Source: Escherichia coli (lineage in GTDB: Bacteria; Pseudomonadota; Gammaproteobacteria; Enterobacterales; Enterobacteriaceae). Taken from it: a DNA stretch of 64,000 nt. A program made the position numbers. The stretch's first letter is position 1, and each line of letters opens with the position of its first letter. Location of the stretch: assembly GCF_013315695.1 (NCBI RefSeq), contig NZ_CP054353.1; one strand, 5' to 3'. This document shows positions 21,001-24,000 of the stretch, one piece after another.

Positions 21001-24000
21001 AGCTTCGCGGAGGTATCAGAGATGCACAGCATAATGCGGCGCAGCTGGCTGCGCTGACTCACGCTTAACGGCTCGTAACTTTCCATATTGCCTGGCAGCA
21101 TCGTTTTAACGCGCGCAATCGCATCAAAGGTATTTGCCGGATGACAGTGAAACTCTGTTACTTGCGTGCCATCAGTCGATGTCGCAGGCAATGGAGGTTC
21201 CATCGTAATCAACTTCTGCGGCAGTTCAGGATGCTGTTGCAGGTAGTGTTCGAAGTTGGTGACGGCATCGCGGGTACGGGTAATTTCATAGCCGGACGCG
21301 TTCATATTGACGACGAAGCCAGCAGGGGCAATCCCCACCAGTACCAGCATTACCAGGCCGATCCCTTTCTGCCCGTCGTTAGCGCCGTGCGAAAACGCCA
21401 CGCCCGCAGCGGAAACAATCAGCGCAATACGCGTCCAGAATGGCGGCTTACGTTTGCCTTTTTTCTTTTTGCGATCTTCCGGAATGCGGTGAATACGGTC
21501 ACGCTTTTTCGTCCCGCTCCAGAAACGGCGCAGCAGGAAAATCAGACCACCCGCAATGACCAGGCCGACGATAGGGGAAACAATCAGCGAGGAGAAAATT
21601 TTGGTCACTTCACGCAGGTTTAACGCATCCATCACCGATGAGCCGGTTAACAGCGCGTTGGTTAAACCGATGCCGATAATCGCACCAATCAAGGTGTGCG
21701 AACTGGAGGCCGGTAAACCAAAGAACCACGTTCCCAGGTTCCAGATAATCGCCGCCAGCAGCATGGAAAAGACCATCGCCAGGCCGTGAGTTGACCCCAT
21801 ATTCAGCAACAAATCGGTTGGTAACATATGGACAATGGCATAGGCAACGCTAAGTCCGCCCAATAACACGCCAAAAAAATTAAAAAATGCCGCCATCACC
21901 ACAGCAAGTTGTGGTTGCATGGCACGAGTATAAATAACGGTTGCCACCGCATTCGCCGTGTCATGAAAACCATTGATTGCTTCGTAGAACAACACAAATG
22001 CCAGAGCAAGTAATAACAAAAGCCCTGTGTATATATCAAGGCCAACAAATAAATTTAGCATATATTAGATTACGCCATTTTGAATTTACGAACGGACGCA
22101 TTATCAGTGACTTTAACGGCATGGGCAAAGTGAAATATCATTTTTTAACGATAAAAAGCGTGTTATTTCTTGCGTATCAGACAATAAGCATTCATTCAAA
22201 ACCTTTAGAAATAATCAAAACACAGGTATTCTGCTGGTTAATATATTCACATATAAAATGAATAAATATTGGAATATATAAATATTGAATGTTTTGATTA
22301 ATCCCCGTACTGATTATTCTTCATAATCAGTACGGGGTTGCTACAACATGTATTACTTTTTCACCACAATTAACGGTTCAATATCACTCTCTTTTTTGAT
22401 GACCAGTGATTCATCACCGCGCAAACACGTCCCACCGTAGTTGCCGCCAACGGTGAAGGTACATACCTGAATGTATTTACCGTCCACTTTCGGCAAACAC
22501 CACAGTTGCTGATAGATGTTTTTCTGCTCGGCAAATTTACCGCTGGTTTTGTCCAGCACCTCTTCATGATGGCTGACCAGGTCGATATTGCTACCACAGC
22601 GACCAGCGATCGGTTTCACTGCATAACCGGTTTTCACCAGTTCATCATTCACGGAGAAATCGGTATCCAGCAGGTAGCGATGGTGCGGGAACAGCGACCA
22701 GAGGATCGGCAGAATCGCTTTGTTGCCGGGGATCACCGTCCACAGCGGCTCAAAGACCAGCACTTCCGGGCGCAGCAATACGTCGATAAGACGCACTTCA
22801 TTTTGCGGATGACCGGTACGGATCGGCACCGCAGCAAACTCACGGTCGCTAACTTCACGAATCTGATCAAACGCCGTCTCCCACGCCCAGGTTTTCCACA
22901 CGCAGTTAACCAGTCGCCCTTCCCCATCAATCAGTTGCCCGGCAGCATCCCAGCCCAGTTCATCCAGCCCACGCAAGATACGCGTTTCAAAGCCCGCCTG
23001 GTGCAGCGCCTGCTCCATAAACTGCGCGTGATAGTTTTCCTCGATATCTTTGTCCTGCATGATATGGACAAACGGACGTGCACGACTGTGTTTCCAGGCA
23101 CCAGCCAGTTCGTTAATCAGTCCTTCCGCCGGATTGAAGCCGTTGCCTTTATAGCCCTGCTCCGCCCAACGTTCGAGGATCAAGCCCGCTTCGGTATGAC
23201 AGGAGGCAGAATCGGCGTTGTATTCGTAGACTTTCAGGCCACGTTCGTCCATGCAGAAATCCATACGACCGGTGATCATATGGTGACGGCGACGCTGCCA
23301 GGAGAGACGCAAACGTGGCCAGAGGATTTTCGGAATGTCGAACAGCGCCAGCAGGTTGTCATCTTTTAGCACCTTGTCGGTTGCGTGAAGATACATCAGG
23401 TGCAGCTCGTTGGTGGCTTTAATCAGCTCCTGCTCTGCGCTCTCGGTAATGGTGTAGTAATGATACGGATCCTGATTGATCACCTGACCGTTGGCCTGTA
23501 CATAGGCGTTTTGCAGCGGATCTTTTTCATCCAGCCATTTACCGTCAAACTGGCCTTTGTTTTCCAGACGCGCCCCGCTGATTTTCAGCAGTTCGCCTGC
23601 AATTTCCGGCTGTGGCAAGCTGTATTCGGTATCTTCCGTCTGGATCATCCAGCCCAGAATAGTGGTGTCATCAAACGTGTCTTTAAGGGTATAGCCGCCG
23701 TTTTCGACCACCATCTCCAGCTCGCGCGTCCACTGTTGCCCTTGCGGCAACGGGGAATGAATCACGTTCTGTTCCGCAATACGGACTTTGTTGCCATGCA
23801 ATTGGGTAATGATGGCGACATGGCCAGTGTCTTTAAATTCACCGCCTTTATCCCAGATAAGAAGCGCACCCGCGACCGGCGCACGCGGCGAGCCGTTAGG
23901 AAATGCCTGCAATGGCAGGATGTTGTCATTGACCACTTCACGCAGGAAGCGCAGCGAGAAAATCTCCCACGCCATACCCACGTCAGTGAAGACCACACCG

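What the first reader, a model, noticed from the sequence alone, without database searches (positions are those of the whole stretch)
22303..22337. Perfect 35-bp palindrome just downstream of gss without a U-tract
A 15-bp perfect stem with a 5-nt loop sits 16 bp after the gss stop. Neither strand has a following U-run, so it is not a canonical intrinsic terminator. It may be an RNA stability element or a site for a dimeric DNA-binding protein in the pitB upstream region.
Basis: seen in the sequence. Interest (0 to 1): 0.25.

Follow-up and report, generated by a model that had tools for sequence, protein, structure and literature searches.

The report
Tail-less terminator hairpin ending gss mRNA
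The palindrome is a real, single-copy RNA hairpin at the end of the E. coli gss message, most likely a former terminator that lost its U-tail and now mainly shields the message's 3' end, which makes it an ordinary kind of element.

Summary
Window 22303-22337 is a perfect 15-bp stem with a 5-nt loop. It starts 15 nt after the gss stop codon and lies 241 nt upstream of the pitB start. Neither strand has a T-run after it. It is the longest perfect hairpin in the window and is not due to chance.

It is not a dispersed repeat: about 5,400 complete E. coli genomes each carry one copy, always at this locus.

Comparative data show it works as RNA on the gss-sense (minus) strand.
- Every stem change in E. 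coli strains, other Escherichia and three Citrobacter species either gives a G·U wobble on the sense strand (an A·C mismatch on the other strand) or is a two-sided compensatory change.
- 97% of cells are paired on the sense strand and 85% on the antisense strand.
- All 78 enterobacterial species examined have a strong hairpin just after gss. About half have a canonical T-run. In the homologous Citrobacter hairpins a T-rich tail follows in two of three.
- In Escherichia, pitB and an AT-rich spacer abut the hairpin where that tail would be.

Best reading: a tail-less descendant of an intrinsic terminator that now sets and protects the gss mRNA 3' end, with termination probably by Rho downstream. 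The DNA-operator reading is not supported. No 3'-end mapping data were accessible. Interest is low.

The parts
22303..22337 (-). The RNA hairpin: a 15-bp perfect stem and 5-nt loop (sense-strand sequence CCCCGUACUGAUUAU-GAAGA-AUAAUCAGUACGGGG), forming the 3'-terminal stem-loop of gss mRNA.
   Evidence: Searches give the structure, with dG -24.8 kcal/mol and z -8.7. Searches show covariation and G·U pairs only on the sense strand. Searches show it is single-copy in E. coli.
22338..22352 (-). 15-nt spacer between the gss stop codon and the hairpin.
   Evidence: Read directly from the sequence.
22353..24212 (-). gss coding sequence (glutathionylspermidine synthetase/amidase, 619 aa). The stop codon is at 22353-22355.
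   Evidence: ORF list and RefSeq annotation of identical or near-identical loci.
22062..22302 (-). AT-rich untranslated spacer of 241 nt between the hairpin and pitB (GC 0.265 over window 22100-22299; the whole 291-nt gss-pitB intergenic region is 30% GC). The first 80 nt after the hairpin are G-poor (C 11, G 5). It is a candidate zone for Rho loading and diffuse termination, and it also holds the pitB promoter region.
   Evidence: Composition. No terminator-like site on the minus strand in this spacer. An RpoS-holoenzyme SELEX peak is reported in the pitB-gsp spacer (PMC5493296).
22100..22128 (-). Sigma-70-like promoter match (TTGCCC-17-GATAAT, 9 of 12) and candidate pitB promoter, about 175 bp downstream of the hairpin.
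   Evidence: This is a consensus match only, and the count in the region is no higher than in shuffles.
20562..22061 (-). pitB coding sequence, co-oriented with gss. It follows gss only in Escherichia.
   Evidence: for the gene; tblastn finds pitB downstream of gss only in E. coli, E. albertii and Escherichia sp.

Best explanation
The palindrome encodes the 3'-terminal stem-loop of the gss mRNA, which is transcribed from the minus strand. It appears to descend from an intrinsic terminator: in the homologous hairpins of some Citrobacter species a T-rich tail follows in two of three. In Escherichia the AT-rich pitB-containing segment begins directly after the last G of the stem, so the U-tract is missing. 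Without a U-tract, E. coli RNA polymerase should terminate there poorly at best. Transcription would then run into the 241-nt untranslated, G-poor, AT-rich spacer. There it would be stopped diffusely, most likely by Rho, or would sometimes read on into pitB. 3'-to-5' exonucleases (PNPase, RNase II) would trim the RNA back to the hairpin, and the hairpin would block them, fixing and stabilising the gss mRNA 3' end. Shown here: the structure, its single-copy status, its position, selection for pairing on the sense RNA strand, and the presence of equivalent hairpins after gss in 78 species. Inferred: the exonuclease-barrier role, the involvement of Rho, and the loss of the U-tract at a rearrangement junction.
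For: (1) The stem is perfect, very stable and begins 15 nt after the gss stop codon. It is the longest perfect hairpin in the window.

(2) Population variants within E. coli preserve the structure. C26U gives G10·U26 (BL21/E110019 type). C1U plus A24G give U1·G35 and U12·G24 (O157/O145 type). U6C plus A30G is a full compensatory U-A to C-G change (EcPNK004, CB209). None of the sampled stem variants breaks a sense-strand pair.

(3) An in-register alignment of 9 distinct Escherichia and Citrobacter hairpins gives 97.0% of cells paired on the sense strand. Six of 15 pairs change on both sides, and 0 of 500 shuffles reach the observed pairing or covariation score. On the antisense strand 84.8% of cells are paired. 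Sixteen cells are G·U on the sense strand and A·C on the antisense strand, and none are the reverse.

(4) All 78 usable species-level loci have a stable hairpin within about 110 nt after gss, with a median of -25.6 kcal/mol. Thirty-nine have a hairpin plus T-run and 39 do not. When the best hairpin is picked independently on each strand, the sense strand is more stable in 60 loci and the antisense strand in 17.

(5) The tails after the homologous Citrobacter hairpins are UUUUAACG, UUGUAUGU and UUAUUUGA. Two of the three pass the terminator rule, and a second canonical terminator follows about 35 nt later. pitB follows gss only in Escherichia, and the genes downstream of gss in Citrobacter are absent from the window.

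(6) No other terminator-like site lies between the hairpin and pitB. The first 80 nt after the hairpin have C 11 and G 5.

(7) Published framework: in E. coli, Rho-dependent transcripts end at stable stem-loops that lack U-rich tails. These stem-loops protect against PNPase and RNase II, and terminators may switch type simply by changing the uridine content downstream (Dar & Sorek 2018, PMC6061677; see also bioRxiv 10.1101/2023.10.02.560326).
Against: I could find no experimental 3'-end, Rho-dependence or half-life data for gss. The held supplements of the E. coli 3'-end mapping papers contain no gss entry or are not held. The downstream C>G bias is weak and is mainly a by-product of an AT-rich spacer. 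Only about 12 E. coli alleles and 5 other species carry the homologous hairpin, and the sequences are phylogenetically related, so the statistics are suggestive rather than exact. Homology of the Citrobacter hairpins rests on position and the shared CCCCGU...(A/G)CGGGG base, not on a significant BLAST extension. An A/U-rich tail (AUUAAUCA) might still allow some intrinsic termination.
Confidence: 0.6

Rival explanations
1. The hairpin is still a working, though non-canonical, intrinsic terminator of gss. A long GC-based stem followed by an A/U-rich hybrid (AUUAAUCA) would release RNA polymerase without Rho, perhaps helped by NusA or NusG.
For: The position and architecture match a terminator hairpin with a GC-rich stem base. 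In two of the three homologous Citrobacter hairpins a T-rich tail follows. Seven of the first 8 tail nucleotides are A or U. Dar & Sorek note possible 'transition state' terminators with low uridine content (PMC6061677).
Against: Only 3 of the first 8 tail nucleotides are U. The tool's terminator rule is not met. A tail score of the d'Aubenton-Carafa/TransTermHP type is 2.49, against 7.15 for an ideal tail (the formula is recalled from memory). From established knowledge, E. coli RNA polymerase needs a U-tract for efficient intrinsic termination.
Confidence: 0.2
2. The hairpin is a relic. It is left over from the ancestral terminator and has no present function in Escherichia, persisting only because too little time has passed for it to decay.
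For: The U-tract is gone, and the element sits at a synteny break. Two E. coli strains tolerate IS1 junctions inside or next to it.
Against: The stem varies about as much as its flanks, but every sampled stem change preserves sense-strand pairing, including one two-sided compensatory change. E. albertii and Escherichia sp. also keep the pairing. Neutral decay would produce A·C and transversion mismatches as well.
Confidence: 0.1
3. The DNA palindrome is an operator for a dimeric DNA-binding protein that regulates pitB (or gss).
For: The dyad is perfect in 75% of E. coli genomes and lies in the pitB upstream region. It contains LexA-like half-sites, TACTG...CAGTA.
Against: Arms of 15 bp are far longer than typical half-sites. 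The upper-stem sequence differs in the Citrobacter homologues although pairing is kept. The single-base natural variants (C26U; C1U plus A24G) make the DNA asymmetric but keep RNA pairing, and 16 cells versus 0 favour the sense RNA strand. pitB is absent downstream of the Citrobacter homologues. The CTG-to-CAG spacing is 15 nt, not the 10 nt of a LexA box (consensus from memory). The site lies about 175 bp upstream of the only promoter-like match. PhoB neither binds nor regulates pitB (PMC10294691).
Confidence: 0.03
4. The hairpin acts on the + strand, as a terminator or barrier for antisense transcripts that start in the pitB promoter region and would otherwise run antisense into gss.
For: In E. 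coli the perfect palindrome folds nearly as well on the + strand (-23.4 kcal/mol). The + strand tail score is slightly higher, 3.15 against 2.49. A + strand promoter-like match lies at 22113-22141.
Against: Variants in Escherichia and Citrobacter create A·C mismatches on this strand (84.8% paired against 97.0% on the sense strand). Across species, hairpins after gss are more stable on the sense strand (60 versus 17). There is no U-run on this strand either.
Confidence: 0.05

Closest known systems
[quoted passage not shown]
   Same: It is an energetically stable stem-loop just downstream of a coding region with no U-rich tail. The downstream sequence has C>G. Stem and loop sizes fall in the range of terminator hairpins.
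   Different: Neither a mapped 3' end nor bicyclomycin or exonuclease dependence is available for gss. The 15-bp perfect stem is at the long end of the usual range, by my own knowledge of typical terminator stem lengths (5-14 bp).
Canonical intrinsic (Rho-independent) terminators
   Same: It has a stem-loop with a GC-rich base directly after the stop codon. Orthologous positions in half of the 78 species carry a true hairpin plus T-run. In two of the three homologous Citrobacter hairpins a T-rich tail follows.
   Different: The defining U-tract is absent in Escherichia (3 U in the first 8 nt), and there is no A-tract upstream.
REP/BIME and other intergenic palindromic repeats that stabilise upstream mRNA (for example the malE-malF REP; from established knowledge)
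   Same: It is an intergenic palindrome between co-oriented genes that could act as a 3' exonuclease barrier and give unequal expression of the upstream and downstream genes.
   Different: It is single-copy, with one site per genome in about 5,400 E. coli genomes. It has no similarity to any Rfam family at the gathering score.
LexA (SOS) box, TACTG-N10-CAGTA
   Same: The half-site letters TACTG and CAGTA occur symmetrically inside the stem.
   Different: CTG and CAG are 15 nt apart rather than 10, which is half a helical turn out of phase. The variation pattern points to RNA rather than DNA.

Membership tests
Canonical intrinsic terminator | Stable GC-containing stem-loop immediately downstream of a gene, on the sense strand | tested here: met
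   15-bp stem, -24.8 kcal/mol, starting 15 nt after the gss stop codon.
Canonical intrinsic terminator | U-tract of about 7-8 nt (at least 5 U in 8) directly after the stem | tested here: not met
   The tail is AUUAAUCAAA, with 3 U in the first 8 nt. The terminator scan finds nothing at the site. Tail score is 2.49 against 7.15 for an ideal tail.
Canonical intrinsic terminator | Factor-independent release of RNA polymerase at the site | not testable with these tools
   This needs in vitro transcription or a reporter assay.
3'-end protective stem-loop of Rho-dependent transcripts (Dar & Sorek 2018) | Stable stem-loop at the gene's 3' end without a uridine-rich tail | tested here: met
   The class is defined in PMC6061677.
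3'-end protective stem-loop of Rho-dependent transcripts (Dar & Sorek 2018) | C-over-G enrichment or a rut-like unstructured region downstream | tested here: inconclusive
   The first 80 nt have C 11 and G 5, with G below the 1st percentile of the window. However, the region is simply AT-rich, and the bias disappears after about 40 nt.
3'-end protective stem-loop of Rho-dependent transcripts (Dar & Sorek 2018) | Steady-state RNA 3' end mapped immediately after the stem, with read-through raised by bicyclomycin and by pnp/rnb deletion | not testable with these tools
   The accessible supplements hold no gss entry or are not held.
Functional RNA secondary structure (general) | Pairing kept through compensatory and wobble changes, specific to one strand | tested here: met
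   97.0% paired, 6 pairs with two-sided changes, and 0 of 500 shuffles reach the observed values on the sense strand. The antisense strand is 84.8% paired with no G·U pairs. A U6C/A30G compensatory allele occurs within E. coli.
Dispersed intergenic repeat (REP/BIME, ERIC, MITE) | Many copies at unrelated loci in one genome | tested here: not met
   5,404 places in 5,402 genomes at E <= 1e-3. The megablast median is 1 place per genome. The half-site occurs nowhere else in the window. The extra low-scoring 'places' fit the palindrome matching its own reverse strand.
Palindromic operator of a dimeric transcription factor | Half-site sequence conserved at orthologous sites, with DNA dyad symmetry maintained | tested here: not met
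   The upper-stem sequence differs in Citrobacter although pairing is kept. The single-base variants are asymmetric at the DNA level.
LexA box | CTG-N10-CAG spacing | tested here: not met
   CTG is at 22310-22312 and CAG at 22328-22330, with 15 nt between them. The consensus is recalled from established knowledge.
Any curated Rfam family | Score at or above the family's gathering threshold | tested here: not met
   The best hit is 31.9 bits against a threshold of 49 (Listeria rli38). All hits are generic hairpin matches.

The most novel reading that the evidence does not exclude
The tail-less hairpin is not just a decay barrier. It could be a tuned read-through point that makes gss-pitB a conditional operon in Escherichia. 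Partial termination or Rho access after the hairpin would set how much transcription from the gss promoter reaches pitB. This would link glutathionylspermidine metabolism to uptake of metal-phosphate, and might help explain why reports on pitB regulation disagree (Harris et al. 2001 as cited in PMC10294691, versus that paper's own finding that PhoB neither binds nor regulates pitB).
Probability: 0.08. Interest if true: 0.3.

Novelty: new member of a known kind. Interest (0 to 1): 0.12.

Why it matters
The value is mainly in annotation. The gss 3' end in E. coli can be placed at a defined stem-loop (K-12 MG1655 coordinates 3,136,613-3,136,647, minus strand), where nothing is annotated. The locus also illustrates an idea raised by Dar & Sorek: a terminator hairpin can outlive its U-tract and move from intrinsic termination to a role in Rho-type 3'-end definition. 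Here that may have happened when a pitB-containing segment came to lie next to the hairpin. The finding has practical use for anyone engineering gss or pitB or interpreting read-through into pitB. It does not open a new question.

Tried and rejected
**Dispersed repeat: rejected.** There is one copy per E. coli genome. Nothing else in the window matches the half-site. The 'plasmid' hits include three multi-megabase records, evidently chromosomes filed as plasmids, and one 354-kb record.

**Phage relation: rejected.** The only hit (phage CUS-3, E = 0.08) lies inside coding sequence and is not a palindrome, so it is chance.

**Known RNA family: rejected.** Nothing in Rfam reaches a gathering score.

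**LexA box: rejected.** The half-sites are spaced 15 nt apart, not 10.

**Small ORF over the hairpin: rejected.** No convincing ORF overlaps it.

**Direct experimental evidence: none reachable.**
- Full-text searches for pitB+gss+terminator, for the half-site sequence, and for pitB+bicyclomycin found nothing.
- Supplements of Dar & Sorek 2018, the Term-seq '3'-UTR valves' paper, the nanopore paper and Herzel et al. are not held.
- Supplements of Adams et al. 2021 and TERMITe are held but contain no gss or pitB entry.
- The RIL-seq and CLASH tables mention only pitB or gss coding or 5' regions, not the hairpin.
- Harris et al. 2001 (pitB characterisation) is not held.

**First sense-versus-antisense energy comparison: replaced.** It was biased because the hairpin had been chosen on the sense strand. 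I repeated it with the best hairpin chosen independently on each strand, and the result held.

**Metagenome scan: not run.** I judged that the expected yield of new alleles was too low to justify the cost.

Full report
**Observation**

Window 22303-22337 reads CCCCGTACTGATTAT-TCTTC-ATAATCAGTACGGGG: two 15-nt arms, 100% complementary, with 5 nt between them.
- gss is on the minus strand at 22353-24212, with its stop codon at 22353-22355.
- pitB is on the minus strand at 20562-22061.
- On the gss-sense strand the hairpin begins 15 nt after the stop codon and ends 241 nt before the pitB ATG.

Neither strand has a T-run after the stem. The sense tail is AUUAAUCAAA and the + strand tail is UUGCUACAAC. 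The terminator scan is silent at this site. The fold is very stable: -24.8 kcal/mol on the sense strand with z = -8.7, and no shuffle out of 200 folds as well. It is the longest perfect hairpin in the 64-kb window, where about 5e-4 are expected by chance. In K-12 MG1655 the element lies at 3,136,613-3,136,647, and nothing is annotated there.

**Is it a repeat?**

No. The intergenic region occurs in 5,385 of 5,426 complete E. coli genomes, with a median of one place per genome. A 49-nt query centred on the palindrome gives 5,404 places in 5,402 genomes at E <= 1e-3. A more permissive search gave a median of two places per genome. That fits the palindrome weakly matching its own reverse strand, because only genomes with the perfect allele showed two places. 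The half-site occurs nowhere else in the window. Hits in the plasmid collection include three multi-megabase records, evidently chromosomes filed as plasmids, and one 354-kb record. The one marginal phage hit is chance. No Rfam family reaches its gathering score.

**RNA or DNA, and which strand?**

I sampled 12 E. coli alleles. Positions are numbered 1-35 on the gss-sense strand.
- BL21/E110019 type: C26U, giving G10·U26.
- O157/O145 type: C1U and A24G, giving U1·G35 and U12·G24.
- EcPNK004 and CB209: U6C together with A30G, a full compensatory change from U-A to C-G.

Every single substitution is a G·U wobble on the sense RNA and would be an A·C mismatch on the other strand.

A scan of one genome per species with the Gss protein returned 80 loci. 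Escherichia sp. and E. albertii carry the same hairpin with further sense-strand wobbles. Three Citrobacter species (L004, L007, L010) carry a hairpin at the same position. It shares the CCCCGU...(A/G)CGGGG base but has a different upper stem.

On an in-register alignment of the nine distinct sequences:
- The sense strand has 97.0% of cells paired and six of 15 pairs with changes on both sides. None of 500 shuffles reaches the observed pairing or covariation score.
- The antisense strand has 84.8% of cells paired and no G·U pairs at all.
- Sixteen cells favour the sense strand and none favour the antisense strand.

This pattern is what selection on an RNA helix in the gss transcript would produce. 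It is not what a DNA operator would produce. The sample is small and the sequences are related, so these numbers are indicative rather than exact.

**Context across species**

In all 78 loci with an intact gss and enough flank, a stable hairpin lies within about 110 nt after the stop codon, with a median of -25.6 kcal/mol. By the same rule as the scan tool, 39 loci have a hairpin plus T-run and 39 do not. When the best hairpin is chosen independently on each strand, the sense-strand hairpin is more stable in 60 loci and the antisense one in 17. My first comparison was biased by choosing the hairpin on the sense strand, and this one replaces it.

The tails after the homologous Citrobacter hairpins are UUUUAACG, UUGUAUGU and UUAUUUGA, and two of the three pass the terminator rule. 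A second, canonical A-tract/T-tract terminator follows about 35 nt later, ahead of a convergent gene.

The divergent yghU-gss pair is widely conserved. In contrast, pitB and yghT follow gss only in Escherichia, and the genes downstream of gss in Citrobacter are absent from the window. The gss-pitB intergenic region is 30% GC, against 52% for the flanking genes.

My inference is that the hairpin is what remains of an intrinsic terminator. Its U-tract was lost where the pitB-containing, AT-rich segment now abuts the stem.

**Mechanism**

With 3 U in the first 8 tail nucleotides, efficient intrinsic termination by E. coli RNA polymerase is unlikely. This rests on established knowledge and on a tail score of 2.49 against 7.15 for an ideal tail (the formula is recalled from memory). 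No other terminator-like site lies before pitB.

Dar & Sorek (PMC6061677) showed the following for E. coli:
- Rho-dependent transcripts end precisely after stable stem-loops that lack U-rich tails.
- Those stem-loops protect against PNPase and RNase II, and real termination occurs further downstream.
- Terminators could change class simply by altering downstream uridine content.

A later preprint generalises the association between stem-loops and 3' ends.

The gss hairpin fits this class. After the stop codon the RNA is untranslated. The first 80 nt after the hairpin are G-poor (C 11, G 5). The spacer is long enough for Rho to act. I therefore propose that transcription passes the hairpin and ends diffusely in the spacer, or sometimes continues into pitB. 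The RNA is then trimmed back to the hairpin, which fixes and stabilises the gss 3' end. The structure, the selection on it and the context are shown here. The roles of Rho and the exonucleases are inferred.

**Rival explanations**

- A weak intrinsic terminator remains possible (0.2), because the tail is A/U-rich.
- A functionless relic (0.1) is disfavoured by the structure-preserving variation.
- A + strand role (0.05) is disfavoured by the A·C mismatches on that strand.
- A DNA operator (0.03) is disfavoured for several reasons. The half-sites are not conserved. The single-base variants are asymmetric at the DNA level. The LexA-like TACTG/CAGTA letters are 15 nt apart rather than 10. PhoB does not bind or regulate pitB (PMC10294691). 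The site lies about 175 bp upstream of the only promoter-like match.

**What I could not get**

I found no mapped gss 3' end, Rho-dependence score or half-life. The relevant supplements are not held or contain no gss entry, and Harris et al. 2001 is not held.

**Verdict**

The element is a new member of a known kind, a gene-end stem-loop without a U-tract. Its evolutionary history is tidy, but it is not surprising to a specialist. Interest is 0.12.

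Noticed in passing
L085 (E. coli 360D-1, NZ_CM180504.1), at the position equivalent to about window 22306-22309; L093 (E. 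coli GD33, NZ_CP076646.1), at about window 22298: There are two independent IS1 junctions at the hairpin. In 360D-1 an IS1 end replaces the sequence from inside the 3' arm onward. In GD33 an IS1 end starts 4 nt after the hairpin. Both probably reflect IS1-mediated deletion of pitB and yghT from the nearby IS1 copy. They show that loss of the downstream region, and in one strain of part of the stem, is tolerated.
   Followed up: partly
window about 18851-19618, 52235-53007 and 58169-58937: The window holds three IS1 copies. One lies next to yghT, just beyond pitB. They were detected through an IS1 in the Klebsiella locus L023 and through the annotation of L001.
   Followed up: no
window 20562-22302; loci L002-L081: pitB and yghT lie downstream of gss only in Escherichia. 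In other Enterobacteriaceae the downstream genes differ, while the divergent yghU-gss pair is conserved. Shared gene order therefore ends right after the gss hairpin.
   Followed up: partly
L004 4937-4960, and the equivalent positions in L007 and L010: Citrobacter species with the homologous hairpin have a second, canonical A-tract/T-tract (bidirectional-looking) terminator about 35 nt further on, before a convergent gene. Their gss therefore has tandem hairpins.
   Followed up: partly
window 22308-22332: The stem contains TACTG...CAGTA, the letters of LexA half-sites, but CTG and CAG are 15 nt apart rather than 10. I treated this as coincidence.
   Followed up: partly
window 57910-57941, 8207-8233 and 25828-25853 (no T-run); 36191-36219 (A-tract and T-tract on both sides): The window has other perfect hairpins of 10-13 bp. 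Several also lack a T-run, and one looks like a bidirectional intrinsic terminator. I did not check their gene context.
   Followed up: no
window 22062-22352 (pitB-gss spacer): A genomic SELEX study lists an RpoS-holoenzyme 'constitutive promoter' peak in the pitB-gsp spacer (PMC5493296). The only sigma-70-like match on the pitB strand is at 22128-22100.
   Followed up: no
L017 (Salmonella enterica subsp. arizonae), L021 (Citrobacter amalonaticus AUH_CA_2023_1), L044 (Kluyvera ascorbata): In L017 and L021, reading from the matched start gave a premature stop (after 90 and 38 codons). In L044 no stop was found within the stored DNA. These may be pseudogenes, frameshifts or assembly errors.
   Followed up: no
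L003 4876-4925 (E. albertii): E. albertii has a 12-nt insertion (GCATGTCCGCGG) right after the hairpin. It pairs with the ACAUGU upstream of the stem and extends the helix (-24.6 kcal/mol on the sense strand versus -16.7 on the antisense strand).
   Followed up: no
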